This document shows, one piece after another, positions 7,647 to 32,901 of a stretch of 41,290 nucleotides of DNA. Under the pieces are notes generated by a model. It was given only the letters and a program-made list of their open reading frames with translations, did no database searches and was not told where the DNA came from. Position 1 is the first letter of the stretch. The number at the start of each line of letters is the position of its first letter. The position numbers and the translations under genes were made by a program. Source of the stretch: a virus; the UHGV virus genome UHGV-0387525. One strand, 5' to 3'.

Positions 7647-8272
7647 ACCGCCAGCACCTTACTGGCAGTGATGTACCGCGCTCGCCGGTCGTCGATGCCG
7701 TTCCGGCCACCATTGATAATCAGAGTTACACGTGCAATATCGCCGGTATACTTCATGCATCCTTTGCTGGCGAAGAACCACGCCGCGCTACGAGCCGCAT
7801 ATTCGTCCTGCGCCAGCAGTTCAGGGCTCTCCAGCAGGTCAACCTTCAGACCGTTTCCGCAATCACGATAGTTATTCAAACCGGTAATCTGGATAAGTCC
7901 GCGCCCTCGGTAATTCCAGCCATCACCAGGGGCATTGTTCCCCATGCGTTTGCTGTATACCAGATTTGCGATCGCGCGCTGGCGCTCAAGTGGCAATGGT
8001 GGTTCACCAGCACGGCGCCCCAGTGCATTAGCCTGCCCCTGAGTGAGACGCCCAGCCCGAACGAAGTTAGCCAGTCCGCTGACACTGTAGTTGAAATTCT
8101 CCTGCAACCTGGTGAAGCCCCCAGACTCATGCCCGACTTGAGCAATAAACATTGCCTGATCTTCTGCTTTGCTGATACCAAACTCTTTCATCGCAGAAGT
8201 TATATGCGAGAACCAGCGTGCGGCCAGTGCCTCGCTGATACCAGCAGCTCGCTGGAATTGTTTAATCTCCAT
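7643..8272 (-). CDS. endolysin, glycoside hydrolase family 19 (chitinase-like)
   Basis: GHESGGF and [13 protein letters not shown] motifs; start moved to MEIKQ (ATG 8272) with GAGGT RBS. Confidence 0.8.
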
Positions 8273-8561
8273 GTTTAGACCTCGATACTTTAAAAATTTG
8301 AACGACGTTACCGCGCGTTTTAATAACCGCAGCCAGCATGACAGCGTTGATAATGACCTCAGATAAATCCACAGCCATTGGCGTACGTAACCAGATTGCA
8401 TAGGCGACTCGAACAGGAATACTGGCCGCAGCAACAATCAGGAAATAAGCAAGCCATCCTCCCCACCTTCGATGTTGAGAGCCGTTACGCCGGAATGTGA
8501 CAACGCGAATTGCTATGCCAGTGCAAATAACTGCATTAGTGATAAGCAAAAAAAAACTCAT
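8262..8561 (-). CDS. small membrane protein in lysis cassette (holin/antiholin candidate)
   Basis: 99 aa with 2-3 hydrophobic helices; start overlaps upstream stop (ATGA). Confidence 0.4.
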
Positions 8562-8962
8562 GCGTTACCATCGTCTTTTCTCCCCGGAATTAACTCGCGT
8601 GGATTATCGGAACGGTGATAGAGCCATATACCAATACGCACAGCGACAATTGCTGACACGAATGCGCCTGCAGAGAAAACAATCCCTTTTTCAAAAGAGT
8701 CCTGCGTGATGGTAGGGATCAGGCTGGCTATGCCGATAAGAATTGATGCTGCTGGTTTGTAAAAGAGAAGGCCGCAAAGAAAGCTGAGCATCGACAGGAG
8801 CACCCGGCGACGGATGGGGTACTCTACTGCAGAGGTAACAAAAATTACCGCCCCAGCCAAAGCCCCTAAAGCAACCTCCGGAGGGACACCTGCAATAACT
8901 GCAGCAAGAGAACCAAAACTAAGCAACTGATTTAATTGCTCACTTGTTACTTGAGCAGACAT
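8558..8962 (-). CDS. putative holin
   Basis: 134 aa, several TM helices, charged C-terminus; first gene of lysis cassette. Confidence 0.45.
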   Translation of the reverse strand: MSAQVTSEQLNQLLSFGSLAAVIAGVPPEVALGALAGAVIFVTSAVEYPIRRRVLLSMLSFLCGLLFYKPAASILIGIASLIPTITQDSFEKGIVFSAGAFVSAIVAVRIGIWLYHRSDNPRELIPGRKDDGNA

Positions 8963-12388: not shown

Positions 12389-12492
12389 GTTAAATCTCCA
12401 GATAGTCGCAGCACCCGTTGCGCCGCATATCTGGTTATTCTATTACCTAAAAAACCATATATGGATAAAAAGACTATAAATACCAATAGATA

Positions 12493-12507
12493 TTACCTTT
12501 CGGGTAA
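12493..12507. promoter_or_regulatory. operator-like palindrome TTACC-N5-GGTAA
   Basis: ttacctttcgggtaa upstream of gene 12584..12841. Confidence 0.6.
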
Positions 12508-12544
12508 TTTGCAAAACGTGCTGGATAGCAAACAAATTATTTGT

Positions 12545-12564
12545 TACTGTATAAACATACAGTT
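12545..12564. promoter_or_regulatory. LexA (SOS) box
   Basis: TACTGTATAAACATACAGTT: CTGT-N8-ACAG, 17/20 match to TACTGTATATATATACAGTA. Confidence 0.7.
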
Positions 12565-12583
12565 ATTGCATGGAGAAGATAAG

Positions 12584-12841
12584 ATGCAGCAGTATCACTA
12601 TCCACTGGAAGACGGATTTACCGAAAGGATTCACACGCCGGGAGGCGTCAGGTCACTGGTGGAGGGATCGCACTTGATGAAATTACTCCGGGATCTCGAT
12701 AAGGATGGATTTAATGTCGATGGCCCACTTGCCGAACTGACTGCACTGATTAACTACGTCACCAGCTCACAGATGTCTATGCAGGATCTGCAAACACATC
12801 TCGACTATTGTGCCGAACAATTACGAAAACAAACCCGGTAA
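12584..12841 (+). CDS. small antirepressor-like protein (Tum-like), paralogous to C-terminus of Ant
   Basis: 85 aa; GGAGAAG RBS before ATG 12584; LMKLLRDLDKDGFNVDGPLAELTAL...MQDLQTHLDY aligns by eye with LMNLLNQLQEDGHDVSGAAAELTTM...LRDIQTHAEY at the end of 13990..14685. Confidence 0.55.
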   Translation: MQQYHYPLEDGFTERIHTPGGVRSLVEGSHLMKLLRDLDKDGFNVDGPLAELTALINYVTSSQMSMQDLQTHLDYCAEQLRKQTR

Positions 12842-12847
12842 ATTTAA

Positions 12848-12865
12848 AGGCCGCAAGAGCGGCCT
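12848..12865. terminator. bidirectional hairpin between convergent genes
   Basis: stem aggccgc/gcggcct, loop aaga; T-rich on both sides. Confidence 0.45.
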
Positions 12866-13592
12866 ATCGTTTCGCTTTGTGCTCGTCCCAGCACGTTTTG
12901 CACCATGCCATTAAGCCGTCCGCATTTTGATTATTAGGGTAAAAGCTGGTCCGTTTTCTGCGGACATTACAAATTGGGCACCACTTCATATGGCGTGTAT
13001 TCTTTGGGCCATCGAGACACCTTGCACACCACTTAGTCAATCCATCTGGATTTTTTGACGATTTCCGGAATTTGTCATATGGAAGGTTTATTCTGCATCG
13101 CAAACACTGCTTGCGGCCACTTGAAACTCTGTTAGCTGATTCTTCTTTTGGCGGCGATACAGAAGGTATTCTTGCTGGCTCTGATACTGCCTGAGGTGCT
13201 TTATTAGATGACTGAGACGATATGTCATCACCAGGGAATCTTCCATGATATGCCGGACGCGTTGACACTCCAGGTGGAAGCTCAGCTGTAAACGGCTTTG
13301 GCTGAATCAGTTGCCTCTCTTTTGCTAACTCCTGCTGTTTATAATATGTCTGGATTACCGCACTATCATAAGCAGGAGGTGCGGAAATATTAGGCGCATT
13401 ACCTCCAGTTTTTTGAAACTGAGTAGAGGTGTGTTCTATCACCTGTGTACGATTAATCGTTATCTCCCCATCTTCGGTCTTTATCGTTTTGTTATGATTA
13501 ACGACCGTACGATCAGAGATCTTAGTCTTGTTCTGGTTGATAACGTAAATAATCACCGCAACCACACCAACAACTATCCAGAAAACTTCCAT
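12864..13592 (-). CDS. membrane-anchored protein with tandem Cys-rich (zinc-ribbon-like) repeats
   Basis: 242 aa; N-terminal TM helix; two copies of C..C..N.DGL..WC..C pattern near C-terminus. Confidence 0.45.
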   Translation of the reverse strand: MEVFWIVVGVVAVIIYVINQNKTKISDRTVVNHNKTIKTEDGEITINRTQVIEHTSTQFQKTGGNAPNISAPPAYDSAVIQTYYKQQELAKERQLIQPKPFTAELPPGVSTRPAYHGRFPGDDISSQSSNKAPQAVSEPARIPSVSPPKEESANRVSSGRKQCLRCRINLPYDKFRKSSKNPDGLTKWCARCLDGPKNTRHMKWCPICNVRRKRTSFYPNNQNADGLMAWCKTCWDEHKAKR

Positions 13593-13612
13593 TGCTTTTC
13601 CTCACAATAACA

Positions 13613-13627
13613 TTACCTTAAAGGTAA
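13613..13627. promoter_or_regulatory. operator-like palindrome TTACC-N5-GGTAA
   Basis: ttaccttaaaggtaa, 21 bp upstream of the minus-strand start at 13592. Confidence 0.6.
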
Positions 13628-13705
13628 TATCTTGCTTTCAGGTGATCAAGCGTTAAACGCAATCAACCAAATACGGTTGATTTTAATATTTCTTCGCGTT
13701 TATCA

Positions 13706-13720
13706 TTACCTTTGCGGTAA
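13706..13720. promoter_or_regulatory. operator-like palindrome overlapping promoter -10
   Basis: ttacctttgcggtaa; TTGATT (13677-13682), 18-nt spacer, TATCAT (13701-13706). Confidence 0.6.
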
Positions 13721-13989
13721 ATTTACATCGCACTCCTCTTGTGCCATAGTAATCGGGCACTGGCAAAATCCAGTGCCGGGATTGGCGTCCCGGATTACTA
13801 AAAGGCGCATTCACCGCGCAAGCGGTTTTTTTATGCGTATAGCACGGCCACATTCGTATTATGGTGGGCTGTGTGGGGGCACCGAAAGGTGCGCCGGGTC
13901 CTTTTAGCCGGTTACGCCAACCCTGCACAGTTCACCACCAACCGATTGGCGTCGGTAGTGGTGATTAACCAGACTAAAAGGTAACCACT
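13721..13989 (+). ncRNA. candidate structured leader / small RNA upstream of ant
   Basis: no credible ORF; hairpins at 13757-13778 and 13776-13793; terminator-like hairpin accgc-gcaa-gcggt + T7 at 13813-13832; decoy SD-like actaaaagg 13797-13805; anti-SD ccttttag 13900-13907. Confidence 0.35.
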
Positions 13990-14685
13990 ATGACAGCTAC
14001 AAAAAGCACGTCCATTTTTTCTTTCGAATCCCAAGCCGATATACGGGTAATCGTCATTAATGGTGAGCCATGGTTTATCGCTTCAGATGTTTGTCGGGCT
14101 ATAGGCATAGCAAACCATCGAGATGCTGTTCGAAAACTTGATGATGATGAGAAGGGCGTCGCTTCAACCGACACCCCTGGCGGTGAGCAAGAATCGATCA
14201 TCATCTCCGAGTCAGGCCTCTACACACTGATCCTCCGCTGCCGCGACGCAGTGACACCAGGCACTATCCCCTACCGCTTTCGCAAATGGGTTACAGGTGA
14301 GGTTCTTCCTCAGATCCGCCGCACCGGAAGTTACATTAAAAACTCGCTCCCGCAGGAAGAACGCATAAAGATGGTTGCCGACCAGGTAGCCAACGCCACA
14401 GCATCAGCAGTAATGCAGGCGATGAAGATAGAGAACAAAACCTACAGCGCCCCACTGAAGCCCGGCTACCGCAGCCTGATTCATTCTCCGTCTGGTGTTC
14501 TCGGCCTGACGGAGAACTCACTGCTGATGAATTTGCTGAACCAGTTGCAGGAAGACGGGCACGATGTATCGGGCGCGGCGGCGGAGCTGACAACCATGTT
14601 TTGCTACATCGTTGGTGTGAGTAAATGCCTGCGTGATATCCAGACTCACGCGGAGTACATCAACGACAAAGCAGGATTCTTCTGA
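13990..14685 (+). CDS. ant: antirepressor with N-terminal Bro-N domain
   Basis: 231 aa; Bro-N-like N-terminus (IRVIVINGEPWFIASDVCRAIGI...ESGLYTLILRCR); C-terminal segment paralogous to 12584..12841. Confidence 0.75.
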   Translation: MTATKSTSIFSFESQADIRVIVINGEPWFIASDVCRAIGIANHRDAVRKLDDDEKGVASTDTPGGEQESIIISESGLYTLILRCRDAVTPGTIPYRFRKWVTGEVLPQIRRTGSYIKNSLPQEERIKMVADQVANATASAVMQAMKIENKTYSAPLKPGYRSLIHSPSGVLGLTENSLLMNLLNQLQEDGHDVSGAAAELTTMFCYIVGVSKCLRDIQTHAEYINDKAGFF

Positions 14686-32824: not shown

Positions 32825-32901
32825 GTGGCATTAGCTCAGTTGGACAGAGCAACCGCCTTCTAAGCGGTTGGTCGCAGGTTCGAATCCTGCATGCCACGCC
32901 A
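32825..32901 (+). tRNA. tRNA-Arg (anticodon UCU)
   Basis: manual cloverleaf: acceptor GTGGCAT/ATGCCAC, D-arm GCTC/GAGC, anticodon stem ACCGC/GCGGT with loop CTTCTAA, T-arm GCAGG-TTCGAAT-CCTGC, discriminator G, encoded CCA. Confidence 0.9.

What the first reader, a model, noticed from the sequence alone, without database searches (positions are those of the whole stretch)
13706..13995. Structured leader or small RNA with anti-Shine-Dalgarno element in front of ant
Some 270 nt between an operator-overlapped promoter (13677-13720) and the ant start lack a credible ORF but are GC-rich and full of hairpins. There is a short terminator-like hairpin with a T7 run (13813-13832). The sequence ccttttag (13900-13907) is the exact complement of the ant RBS ctaaaagg (13974-13981), and an RBS-like decoy actaaaagg sits at 13797-13805. 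GATTGGCGTC occurs twice (13780-13789, 13944-13953). This predicts alternative folds that sequester or free the ant ribosome-binding site, or a processed small RNA, reminiscent of c4/sar control of antirepressors in P1 and P22, but the sequence is not one I recognise.
Basis: partly seen in the sequence, partly recalled or inferred. Interest (0 to 1): 0.7.

Follow-up and report, generated by a model that had tools for sequence, protein, structure and literature searches.

The report
IsrK–c4 antisense control of antirepressor
The stretch in front of the phage's antirepressor gene is an unannotated copy of the well-known P1/P4-type "IsrK–c4" RNA immunity module, in which a small processed RNA pairs with and hides the gene's ribosome-binding site; it is real but ordinary.

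Summary
The region is two curated Rfam families in tandem, both well above gathering score: isrK (RF01394, 13757-13832, 77.9 bits) and C4 antisense RNA (RF01695, 13857-13942, 77.7 bits). They sit directly upstream of a Bro-N antirepressor gene (13990-14685).

The "decoy" and the ant RBS are targets b1 and b2. The layout matches the annotated P1 immI region part for part.

In 107 non-identical c4 loci from viral contigs, a'/b' co-vary with a1/b1/a2/b2. All four sites are complementary in 76 loci, against 0.08 expected from permutation. b2 usually ends 6-15 nt before a start codon. The c4 fold has compensatory changes in 13 of 26 pairs.

The "IsrK-C4 immunity system" is already described for P1/P7, P4, Gifsy-1 and APSE. 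This is an unannotated member in a phiV10/ZX5-like E. coli podophage, with its own specificity. Processing, trans-repression and the decoy role of IsrK are inferred, not tested. Interest is low.

The parts
13705..13721 (.). Operator-like palindrome ATTACCTTTGCGGTAAA. It abuts the -35 of the conserved promoter and overlaps the -10 of the upstream promoter-like site.
   Evidence: ATTACC-N5-GGTAAT with up to 2 mismatches occurs 17 times in the window against 1.2 expected, almost always between genes. The same palindrome sits at the same place in phiV10, Tyrion and two Klebsiella phages, with variable spacers. Binding by the phage repressor is inferred.
13677..13706 (+).
   Evidence: Consensus scan, 9 of 12 matches. 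It lies outside the block shared with ZX5 and phiV10, whose homology starts at 13700-13716, so it is not conserved.
13722..13750 (+). Conserved promoter TTTACA-17-(TG)CATAGT. The predicted start is G13757.
   Evidence: Scan, 9 of 12 matches with an extended -10 TG. The -35/-10 pair keeps the same distance from IsrK position 1 in 11 loci, including Gifsy-1, whose isrK start I placed by matching the paper's mutation numbering to the sequence.
13757..13832 (+). IsrK-like short RNA (P4 'seqA' / P1 'a1b1' leader): hairpin 1 at 13757-13776, hairpin 2 at 13777-13792, a single-stranded stretch, then a terminator.
   Evidence: Rfam RF01394, 77.9 bits against gathering score 50, E = 2.6e-16, full length. 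RF03163 c4-a1b1 scores 45.1 bits at 13744-13796, just below its gathering score of 46.7. Fold.
13782..13788 (+). a1 target/decoy site TTGGCGT, in the loop region of IsrK hairpin 2.
   Evidence: Exact complement of a'. The homologous G28 and G31 of Gifsy-1 IsrK were shown by mutation to be needed for activity.
13798..13805 (+). b1 target/decoy site CTAAAAGG, single-stranded in IsrK.
   Evidence: Exact complement of b'. The a1-to-b1 spacing of 16 nt matches the 15-16 nt family norm.
13813..13832 (+). Intrinsic terminator of IsrK: 5-bp GC-rich stem, GCAA loop, U7. It is presumably leaky.
   Evidence: Scan. A T-run lies upstream of c4 in 104 of 107 family loci. Read-through is documented for Gifsy-1.
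13857..13942 (+). c4 antisense RNA gene (Rfam match). By alignment with P1 c4, the mature RNA is predicted to be 13863-13939 (77 nt).
   Evidence: Rfam RF01695, 77.7 bits against gathering score 45, E = 8e-15. Folding energy -45.6 kcal/mol, z = -4.7 to -5.2. In the 78-sequence alignment, 13 of 26 pairs show compensatory changes and the 3' CCACC is conserved (C, C, C invariant; the other C and the A at >=90%). The P1 mature ends come from the annotated record.
13900..13907 (+). b' antisense element CCTTTTAG in the loop of c4 hairpin 2.
   Evidence: Unpaired in the minimum-energy and consensus folds. Complementary to b1 and b2. Duplex with b2: -9.2 kcal/mol.
13914..13920 (+). a' antisense element ACGCCAA in the single-stranded junction of c4.
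   Evidence: Unpaired. Duplex with a2: -10.3 kcal/mol.
13946..13952 (+). a2 target site TTGGCGT on the ant leader, 7 nt after the predicted c4 3' end.
   Evidence: Its position matches P1 a2, which starts 4 nt after c4. An a2 complement of at least 7 nt is present in 107 of 107 loci.
13974..13981 (+). b2 target site CTAAAAGG, which contains the ant Shine-Dalgarno AAGG, 8 nt before the ATG.
   Evidence: Across the family, b2 usually ends 6-15 nt before the next start codon (78 of 94 loci; the rest are start-calling artefacts).
13990..14685 (+). ant: antirepressor with a Bro-N N-terminal domain (231 aa), the regulated gene.
   Evidence: Pfam Bro-N, E = 2.3e-21. The stretch is 99% identical in DNA to ZX5, which covers its ORF4 'anti-repressor'. 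Overexpressing ORF4 cut lysogens from 1e9 to 1e6 per mL.

Best explanation
This is the immI-type 'IsrK-c4' RNA module that controls the phage's antirepressor.

Proposed mechanism:

1. Transcription starts at about 13757 from a promoter that abuts a repressor operator.
2. Most transcripts stop at the leaky terminator (13813-13832). This gives a ~76-nt IsrK-like RNA that displays a1 in a hairpin loop and b1 in a single strand.
3. Read-through transcripts carry c4, which is cut out as a ~77-nt tRNA-like RNA (predicted 13863-13939). In P1 and P4 the enzyme that does this is RNase P.
4. c4 displays b' (CCUUUUAG) in a hairpin loop and a' (ACGCCAA) in a single-stranded junction. Through these two short contacts it pairs with a2 and b2 on the ant leader.
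5. b2 contains the ant Shine-Dalgarno sequence. Pairing therefore blocks ribosome binding, and probably exposes the untranslated message to premature termination. Ant is kept off and the prophage repressor stays active.
6. The a1/b1 sites compete for c4, both in cis on the nascent transcript and in trans on the short IsrK RNA. The IsrK:c4 ratio therefore sets whether Ant is made.

Shown here: family membership, the fold, the complementarities and their co-variation, and the position of b2 on the ribosome-binding site.

Inferred from homologues: processing, repression in trans, the decoy role of IsrK, and repressor binding at the operator.
For: - **Family membership.** Rfam gathering-level hits to isrK and C4 lie in tandem on the + strand. 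The same pair is found in phiV10, Tyrion, Klebsiella, Hafnia, Yersinia, Stx and APSE phages and in P4.
- **Match to P1.** The parts correspond one to one with the annotated P1 immI region: operator, tandem promoters, a1, b1, c4, a2, b2, first ORF.
- **Co-variation among named phages.** In 14 named phages, a'/b' differ and the targets change with them. Examples are P1 CTGTCAA/TCACTAAC, P7 CTGCTAA/TCACAATC, APSE ATGCGAA/CCTGTTTAG and this window ACGCCAA/CCTTTTAG.
- **Co-variation at scale.** In 107 non-identical viral loci, a b2 complement of at least 7 nt is present in 94 (permutation mean 4.9) and b1 in 66 (1.6). All four sites match over at least 6 nt in 76 loci (0.08). b2 usually ends 6-15 nt before a start codon.
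- **Structure.** The c4 fold is supported by 13 of 26 pairs with compensatory changes, with a' and b' unpaired.
- **Specificity within the window.** The window holds no other CTAAAAGG copy, so ant is the only two-site target.
- **Experiments in Gifsy-1.** After I mapped the published numbering onto the sequence, IsrK G28/G31 fall in a1 and 'orf45' C159/C162 fall in a'. Mutating either side derepresses the antirepressor-like gene anrP. IsrK supplied in trans activates anrP translation 139-fold, and IsrK mutated in a1 does not. A processed ~80-nt RNA, STnc1160, arises from the c4 position.
- **The regulated protein.** ZX5 ORF4, which lies in a stretch 99% identical in DNA to the window, promotes lytic growth when overexpressed.
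Against: - There are no transcript, processing or reporter data for this phage or any Uetakevirus.
- Gifsy-1 is the closest studied homologue with an IsrK terminator. Its authors explain activation through translation of an 'orf45' coupled to the downstream gene. Constitutive STnc1160 did not prevent IsrK toxicity there, which does not fit a simple c4-repressor/IsrK-decoy scheme.
- In P4 the same RNAs act mainly on transcription termination rather than on a ribosome-binding site. The balance between translational and transcriptional effects here is therefore open.
- RNAcofold cannot represent loop-loop contacts and gave no net interaction energy. The strength of the two-site pairing (about -9 and -10 kcal/mol per site) is only a per-site estimate.
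Confidence: 0.85

Rival explanations
1. A purely cis-acting structured leader. The full-length transcript switches between folds that hide or expose the ant ribosome-binding site, and no separate trans-acting small RNA is made.
For: The minimum-energy fold of 13757-14010 pairs a1/b1 with a'/b' in cis and leaves b2 in a loop. Gifsy-1 native gels show two conformers of the isrK-orf45 RNA.
Against: - The c4 segment alone forms a very stable, tRNA-like fold (z about -5). That fold is conserved with compensatory changes and a conserved 3' CCACC, which is what a released RNA would need.
- Stable processed RNAs of this segment are documented for P1 (annotated 77-nt misc_RNA), P4 CI and Gifsy-1 STnc1160.
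- IsrK works in trans in Gifsy-1.
Confidence: 0.08
2. The segment encodes a small protein: either the 'Ash family protein' annotated in phage ZX5, or an 'orf45'-like upstream ORF whose translation is coupled to ant.
For: - GenBank annotates a 37-aa 'ash family protein' at the position equivalent to 13871-13984 in ZX5.
- Pfam PF10554 matches translations of this region in other phages.
- Gifsy-1 orf45 start-codon mutations lower anrP activation.
- In 49 of 91 family loci the c4 AUG is in frame with the downstream gene.
Against: - In the window the c4-AUG frame stops after 35 codons at 13968, before b2 and 21 nt short of the ant ATG. Stop/start coupling is therefore impossible.
- Only 4 of 91 loci have the Gifsy-type ATGA overlap, and 33 stop before b2 at many different lengths.
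- The 35-aa and 37-aa ORFs hit nothing in Pfam or NCBIfam.
- The IsrK and c4 parts fall in different frames in the window compared with Hafnia yong2.
- The IsrK-to-c4 distance varies among relatives by steps that are not multiples of three (about 101-106 nt).
- In P4, PF10554 matches the obsolete 'cI protein' ORF that overlies the CI RNA, not the real epsilon protein.
- The Gifsy-1 authors themselves report that the nucleotide sequence is conserved but the amino-acid sequence is not.
Confidence: 0.04
3. A P22 sar-like cis-antisense system: a small RNA transcribed from the opposite strand across the ant ribosome-binding site.
For: Both control an antirepressor.
Against: No minus-strand promoter-like site lies in 13400-14200. 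All Rfam matches and all complementarities are between segments of the same strand.
Confidence: 0.01

Closest known systems
Bacteriophage P1/P7 immI region (c4 antisense RNA, icd, ant1/2)
   Same: - Same RNA family (RF01695).
- Same order of parts on one strand: repressor operator, promoter(s), a1, b1, c4, a2, b2 over the ribosome-binding site of the first ORF.
- Same two-site recognition, with specificity set by a' and b'.
- Same predicted 77-nt mature RNA with a 3' ...CCACC.
   Different: - There is no icd gene. b2 covers the Shine-Dalgarno sequence of ant itself, so coupling through icd translation is not needed.
- The upstream a1/b1 leader ends in a clear U7 terminator and scores as full IsrK. 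The P1-group leaders score just below the isrK gathering score.
- Specificity differs: a TTGGCGT / b CTAAAAGG here, against TTGACAG / GTTAGTGA in P1.
- Ant is a 231-aa Bro-N protein, not P1 Ant1/2.
- The host phage is a phiV10-like podovirus, not a P1-like myovirus plasmid prophage.
Gifsy-1 isrK-orf45(STnc1160)-anrP locus of Salmonella (Hershko-Shalev et al. 2016, PMC4825925)
   Same: - IsrK with a terminator, followed by a c4-family RNA, followed by an antirepressor-like gene.
- Identical a sites (TTGGCGT / ACGCCAA).
- The promoter lies at the same distance from the start.
- Read-through plus a short RNA acting in trans is the experimentally supported behaviour.
   Different: - The b specificity differs (ATCACCG in Gifsy-1).
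- Gifsy-1's 45-codon frame through c4 ends in an ATGA overlap with anrP. In the window it stops 21 nt before ant.
- Gifsy-1 has no ATTACC-N5-GGTAAT operator at the promoter.
Satellite phage P4 immunity (seqA, CI RNA/seqB, seqC)
   Same: P4 carries both Rfam families in the same order: isrK 60.8 bits and C4 74.9 bits. Its literature describes an RNA processed from the leader that pairs with sites upstream and downstream of itself.
   Different: In P4 the read-out is premature transcription termination of the replication operon, not occlusion of an antirepressor ribosome-binding site. The IsrK-to-c4 spacing is about 107 nt in P4 against 24 nt here.
APSE phages of Hamiltonella (isrK + c4 + BRO-N gene; 10.1101/2020.03.17.996009)
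   Same: Identical gene order, with a Bro-N protein directly after b2. The record annotates both RNAs and the two antisense regions.
   Different: About 71% nucleotide identity. Specificity differs: ATGCGAA / CCTGTTTAG. There are no functional data for either.
P22 immI sar RNA
   Same: A small RNA that limits antirepressor translation at its ribosome-binding site.
   Different: sar is encoded on the opposite strand and is fully complementary to its target (established knowledge, recalled from memory). Here the regulator is on the same strand and uses two short imperfectly spaced contacts. There is no Rfam or promoter evidence for a sar-like RNA.

Membership tests
C4 antisense RNA (Rfam RF01695; P1/P7 c4, P4 CI) | Covariance-model score at or above the curated gathering score over the full model | tested here: met
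   77.7 bits against gathering score 45, model positions 1-87 of 87, E = 8e-15.
C4 antisense RNA (Rfam RF01695; P1/P7 c4, P4 CI) | Long closing stem enclosing two hairpins, with one antisense element in the second hairpin loop and the other in the following single-stranded junction | tested here: met
   The minimum-energy fold of 13857-13942 gives exactly this. The consensus fold of 78 homologues has compensatory changes in 13 of 26 pairs, with b' and a' in unpaired columns.
C4 antisense RNA (Rfam RF01695; P1/P7 c4, P4 CI) | a' and b' complementary to a2/b2 downstream on the same transcript, with b2 over the ribosome-binding site of the next ORF | tested here: met
   a' 13914-13920 pairs with a2 13946-13952. 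b' 13900-13907 pairs with b2 13974-13981, which holds the AAGG 8 nt before the ATG. Family-wide co-variation is shown.
C4 antisense RNA (Rfam RF01695; P1/P7 c4, P4 CI) | A second copy of the targets (a1/b1) upstream of c4 | tested here: met
   a1 at 13782-13788 and b1 at 13798-13805. RF03163 c4-a1b1 scores 45.1 bits against gathering score 46.7, marginally below.
C4 antisense RNA (Rfam RF01695; P1/P7 c4, P4 CI) | Release of a ~77-nt RNA from the leader by RNase P (3' CCA-like end) | not testable with these tools
   Only indirect evidence: the 3' CCACC is conserved in 78 sequences (three C invariant, the other C and the A at >=90%), and the ends are predicted by alignment to the annotated P1 RNA. 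RNase P cleavage of c4 and CI is recalled from the literature, not tested.
C4 antisense RNA (Rfam RF01695; P1/P7 c4, P4 CI) | Represses antirepressor synthesis in trans and determines immunity specificity | not testable with these tools
The prediction rests on homologues.
IsrK (Rfam RF01394; P4 seqA RNA) | Covariance-model score above the gathering score; two 5' hairpins plus an intrinsic terminator | tested here: met
   77.9 bits against gathering score 50, full length. Fold and terminator.
IsrK (Rfam RF01394; P4 seqA RNA) | Starts at its own promoter, with partial read-through into c4 and the downstream gene | tested here: inconclusive
   The promoter-like site is at the conserved distance, and c4 has no promoter of its own in the 24-nt gap. 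The termination-to-read-through ratio cannot be computed.
IsrK (Rfam RF01394; P4 seqA RNA) | Hfq binding and activation of the downstream gene in trans | not testable with these tools
   Known only for Gifsy-1.
P22 sar-type cis-antisense RNA | Promoter on the opposite strand, giving a transcript fully complementary to the ant ribosome-binding site | tested here: not met
   No minus-strand promoter-like site in 13400-14200. No Rfam match on the minus strand.
Ash protein family (Pfam PF10554) | An intact ORF whose product matches the profile above its cut-off | tested here: not met
   The ORFs 13861-13968, 13871-13984, 13632-13907 and 13683-13928(-) give no hit. A single-frame translation of 13747-13989 with stops masked gives no hit either.

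The most novel reading that the evidence does not exclude
phiV10/ZX5-like podophages may run a complete P1-style two-part immunity, although they are unrelated to P1. One part would be a single repressor (candidate 461-1045) acting at about 17 scattered ATTACC-N5-GGTAAT operators. The other would be an IsrK-c4 RNA switch on the antirepressor whose own promoter is under that repressor. A stand-alone copy of the Ant C-terminal domain (12461-12841, with its own operator) would act as an extra modulator. In this reading, the ratio of terminated IsrK to processed c4 is the actual induction trigger.
Probability: 0.35. Interest if true: 0.35.

Novelty: already known. Interest (0 to 1): 0.2.

Why it matters
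The main value is for annotation. This module is unannotated in phiV10, in TL-2011b and in the RefSeq E. coli records listed. In ZX5 it is mislabelled as a 37-aa 'ash family protein'. Sequences related to it turn up in 941 of 5,426 complete E. coli genomes.

Recognising it tells anyone studying lysogeny in these phages that antirepressor output is probably set by RNA-RNA pairing with a defined specificity (a TTGGCGT, b CTAAAAGG), not only by the protein repressor. That includes K1-specific and O157-specific members used for typing or therapy. It does not open a new question, because the mechanism class has been known since 1990.

Tried and rejected
- **RNAcofold** of mature c4 with the ant leader or with IsrK gave an interaction energy of about zero, and swapping in foreign a'/b' made no difference. 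The algorithm cannot form loop-loop contacts without opening the stable c4 stem, so this is uninformative rather than negative. Per-site duplex energies are reported instead.\n- **Automated test of a1 placement.** I tried to test whether a1 lies in a hairpin loop across 103 loci. Only 18 passed. The RNA boundaries were guessed crudely, so I disregard this and rely on the Rfam consensus structure and the window's own fold.\n- **Coding reading** ('orf45' or Ash protein) was tested and rejected for the window.\n- **sar-like opposite-strand RNA** was rejected.\n- **Other trans targets of c4** were searched for in the window; none was found.\n- **IsrK/orf45 equals a1b1/c4.** I first thought this link might be unrecognised in the literature. 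That is wrong. One broad paper search returned mostly irrelevant hits.
Full report
**1. What is in the sequence**

The finding lies between a minus-strand gene that starts at 13592 and a plus-strand ORF at 13990-14685.

- That ORF has a Bro-N domain (E = 2.3e-21).
- It lies in a stretch that is 99% identical in DNA to phage vB_EcoP_ZX5, where the same gene is the ORF4 'anti-repressor'.
- ZX5 ORF4 reduced lysogens a thousand-fold when overexpressed (PMC9782041).
- The window as a whole is a phiV10/epsilon15-like (Uetakevirus-type) E. coli podophage with a CUS-3-type endosialidase tailspike.

- CTAAAAGG or its complement occurs three times in 41 kb, all within 184 nt here.
- GATTGGCGTC occurs twice, both here, against 0.09 expected.
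- The hairpin plus T7 run is picked up as terminator-like.
- The leader folds far better than shuffles (z = -4.95).

**2. What it is**

Rfam gives two full-length matches well above the curated thresholds, both on the + strand:

- isrK (RF01394) at 13757-13832: 77.9 bits against gathering score 50.
- C4 antisense RNA (RF01695) at 13857-13942: 77.7 bits against gathering score 45.
- The 'a1, b1 targets of C4' model (RF03163) overlaps the 5' part at 45.1 bits, just below its gathering score of 46.7.

The c4 segment alone folds at -45.6 kcal/mol, z about -5. I call this b'. I call this a'.

- a' is the complement of the TTGGCGT core of the repeated decamer (a1 at 13782-13788, a2 at 13946-13952).
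- b' is the complement of the 'decoy' (b1, 13798-13805) and of the ant ribosome-binding site (b2, 13974-13981, with AAGG 8 nt before the ATG).

**3. Comparison with the reference system**

The fully annotated P1 record lists the following parts in this order on one strand:

1. A C1 operator that overlaps the first of two promoters.
2. a1 and b1.
3. The 77-nt c4 RNA.
4. a2, which starts 4 nt after c4.
5. b2, which lies over the ribosome-binding site of icd.
6. icd, then ant.

The window has the same parts in the same order and at nearly the same spacings. Aligning to P1 predicts a mature c4 of 13863-13939, also 77 nt. The one structural difference is that there is no icd, so b2 sits on the Shine-Dalgarno sequence of ant itself.

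**4. Promoter and operator**

- The second site places the start at about 13757, which is position 1 of the isrK model.
- A -35/-10 pair lies at the same distance in all 11 loci compared. These include Gifsy-1, whose isrK start I placed by matching the paper's mutation numbering to the sequence.
- Homology with ZX5 and phiV10 begins only at 13700-13716, so the upstream site is not part of the conserved module.
- The palindrome ATTACCTTTGCGGTAAA (13705-13721) abuts the -35. Four Uetakevirus-type relatives keep it at the same place with different spacers.
- The pattern ATTACC-N5-GGTAAT occurs 17 times in the window against 1.2 expected, nearly always between genes.
- An HTH_3 protein (461-1045), flanked by three such sites, is the obvious candidate repressor.

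Binding of the repressor is inferred.

**5. Test of the antisense idea by co-variation**

In 14 named phages, a' and b' differ and the four targets change with them:

| Phage | a' | b' |
|---|---|---|
| P1 | CTGTCAA | TCACTAAC |
| P7 | CTGCTAA | TCACAATC |
| D6 | as P1 | new b |
| APSE-7 | ATGCGAA | CCTGTTTAG |
| Tyrion / Klebsiella ST512 | AGACCAA | CCTTTGTAG |
| Stx phage PA28 | ACGCCAA | TCCTTTTTC |
| Window and phiV10 | ACGCCAA | CCTTTTAG |

The few imperfect target sites include G-U changes.

I then scanned viral contigs for a conserved c4 pattern and analysed 107 non-identical loci.

| Site complementary to its own c4 | Loci (of 107) | Mean when a'/b' are swapped between loci |
|---|---|---|
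| b2, at least 7 nt | 94 | 4.9 |
| b1, at least 7 nt | 66 | 1.6 |
| a2, at least 7 nt | 107 | 16 |
| a1, at least 7 nt | 96 | 16 |
| All four, at least 6 nt | 76 | 0.08 |

- In 78 of the 94 loci with a b2 match, b2 ends 6-15 nt before a start codon. The remaining values come from start codons called inside b2.
- A T-run precedes c4 in 104 of 107 loci, and the a1-to-b1 spacing is 15-16 nt in most.
- A 78-sequence alignment gives the Rfam-like fold, with compensatory changes in 13 of 26 pairs, a' and b' in unpaired variable columns, and a conserved 3' CCACC.

This is strong comparative support for two-site RNA-RNA recognition of the ribosome-binding site.

**6. Experimental anchors from homologues**

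I mapped the Gifsy-1 paper's numbering onto the sequence.

- IsrK G28 and G31 lie in a1. 'orf45' C159 and C162 lie in a'. The published 'helix b-I' is therefore the a1:a' pairing.
- The 'orf45' start is the conserved AUGGUGGG at the 5' end of c4.
- The processed ~80-nt STnc1160 corresponds to c4.
- In that system, IsrK supplied in trans raises translation of the downstream antirepressor-like gene (anrP) 139-fold. IsrK mutated in a1 is inactive, and a' mutations derepress.
- The 'compensatory' doubles (G28A+C162U, G31A+C159U) do not restore repression: 224 and 327 units against 4. This is what one expects if a' must also pair with the unchanged a2. That reading is mine, not the authors'.

**7. 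Rival readings**

- **Purely cis leader switch.** It has some support, because the minimum-energy fold of the whole leader pairs a1/b1 with a'/b'. It does not explain the tRNA-like fold, which is conserved with compensatory changes, or the stable processed RNAs seen in three homologous systems.
- **Coding reading.** It fails in the window. The frame from the c4 AUG stops after 35 codons, before b2. Only 4 of 91 loci have the Gifsy-type stop/start overlap. None of the small ORFs matches Pfam or NCBIfam.
- **sar-like opposite-strand RNA.** There is no promoter for it.

**8. Is it new?**

No.

- Barquist et al. [quoted passage not shown]
- Hershko-Shalev et al. 2016 liken IsrK to P4 seqA and STnc1160 to CI.
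- The APSE genome paper annotates isrK, c4, a' and b' in front of a Bro-N gene.
- P4 itself carries both Rfam families.

What is missing is only annotation in this phage lineage. phiV10 lists just a 'terminator'. ZX5 lists a 37-aa 'ash family protein'. The RefSeq E. coli records listed show only the Bro-N CDS under the match, although related sequences turn up in 941 of 5,426 complete genomes.

I therefore rate the finding as already known, a real feature, and of low interest.

**9. Shown and inferred**

Shown here:

- Family membership and the fold.
- All complementarities and their co-variation.
- The position of b2 on the ribosome-binding site.
- Conservation of the promoter and operator.

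Inferred from homologues or general knowledge:

- RNase P processing.
- Repression in trans.
- Any Rho-dependent polarity.
- The decoy role of IsrK.
- Repressor binding at 13705-13721.

Noticed in passing
L007 988-1671; L013 1077-2228; L135 (P4) 8168-8584 minus strand; window 13871-13984: Pfam PF10554 'Phage_ASH' appears to model the conceptual translation of the IsrK-c4 RNA locus rather than a real protein. It matches only the part of fused ORFs that overlies isrK + c4 (Hafnia yong2, Stx2a_1447). In P4 it matches the obsolete 'cI gene product' ORF over the CI RNA, while the true P4 epsilon hits PF25738. This probably explains the 'Ash family protein' label that ZX5 gives to a 37-aa ORF inside c4.
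   Followed up: yes
window 390, 1102, 1164, 6888, 12492, 13612, 13705, 14757, 32487, 35676, 35694, 39193, 39255 and weaker sites: There are seventeen near-palindromes ATTACC-N5-GGTAAT (up to 2 mismatches) against 1.2 expected, almost all between genes. This looks like a scattered operator set for one repressor, as in P1. The HTH_3 protein at 461-1045, flanked by three sites, is the candidate repressor.
   Followed up: partly
window 12461-12841 (+), likely true start near 12581: This small ORF is 42% identical (E = 6e-19) to the C-terminal 74 residues of Ant. It has no Bro-N domain and has its own operator-like site at 12492-12508. It is a stand-alone copy of the antirepressor's C-terminal domain; phiV10 has an equivalent gene (p24). 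Function unknown.
   Followed up: partly
L040 9700-11270 (IMGVR_UViG_2671181028_000005); L092 4800-5500: L040 holds three tandem isrK-c4-gene units exactly 656 nt apart; L092 shows two c4 pattern matches at the same 656-nt spacing. In L040 each unit precedes a ~120-aa gene, and the two copies I aligned carry different a'/b'. This looks like an array of independently addressed RNA switches.
   Followed up: partly
Gifsy-1 L014 34126-34316 (minus strand) and Table 1D of PMC4825925: The published compensatory double mutants (IsrK G28A + C162U, G31A + C159U) did not restore repression. After mapping, these positions are a1 and a'. The failure fits a requirement for a':a2 pairing, which the 'orf45 coupling' model does not include.
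   Followed up: partly
window 12864-13592 (-): This divergently transcribed 242-aa protein has an N-terminal membrane helix and a C-terminal Cys-rich region (weak Stc1-like hit, E = 3e-4). An operator-like palindrome (13612-13628) lies about 20 nt upstream of its start. Function unknown.
   Followed up: no
window 32825-32898 (+): A tRNA gene (Rfam tRNA, 73.3 bits) lies among the phage genes.
   Followed up: no
all isrK homologues, e.g. window 13764-13770: The loop of IsrK hairpin 1 (GCAAAAUC) is conserved from P1 and P4 to APSE, although it takes no part in the a/b pairing. No role is known for it.
   Followed up: no
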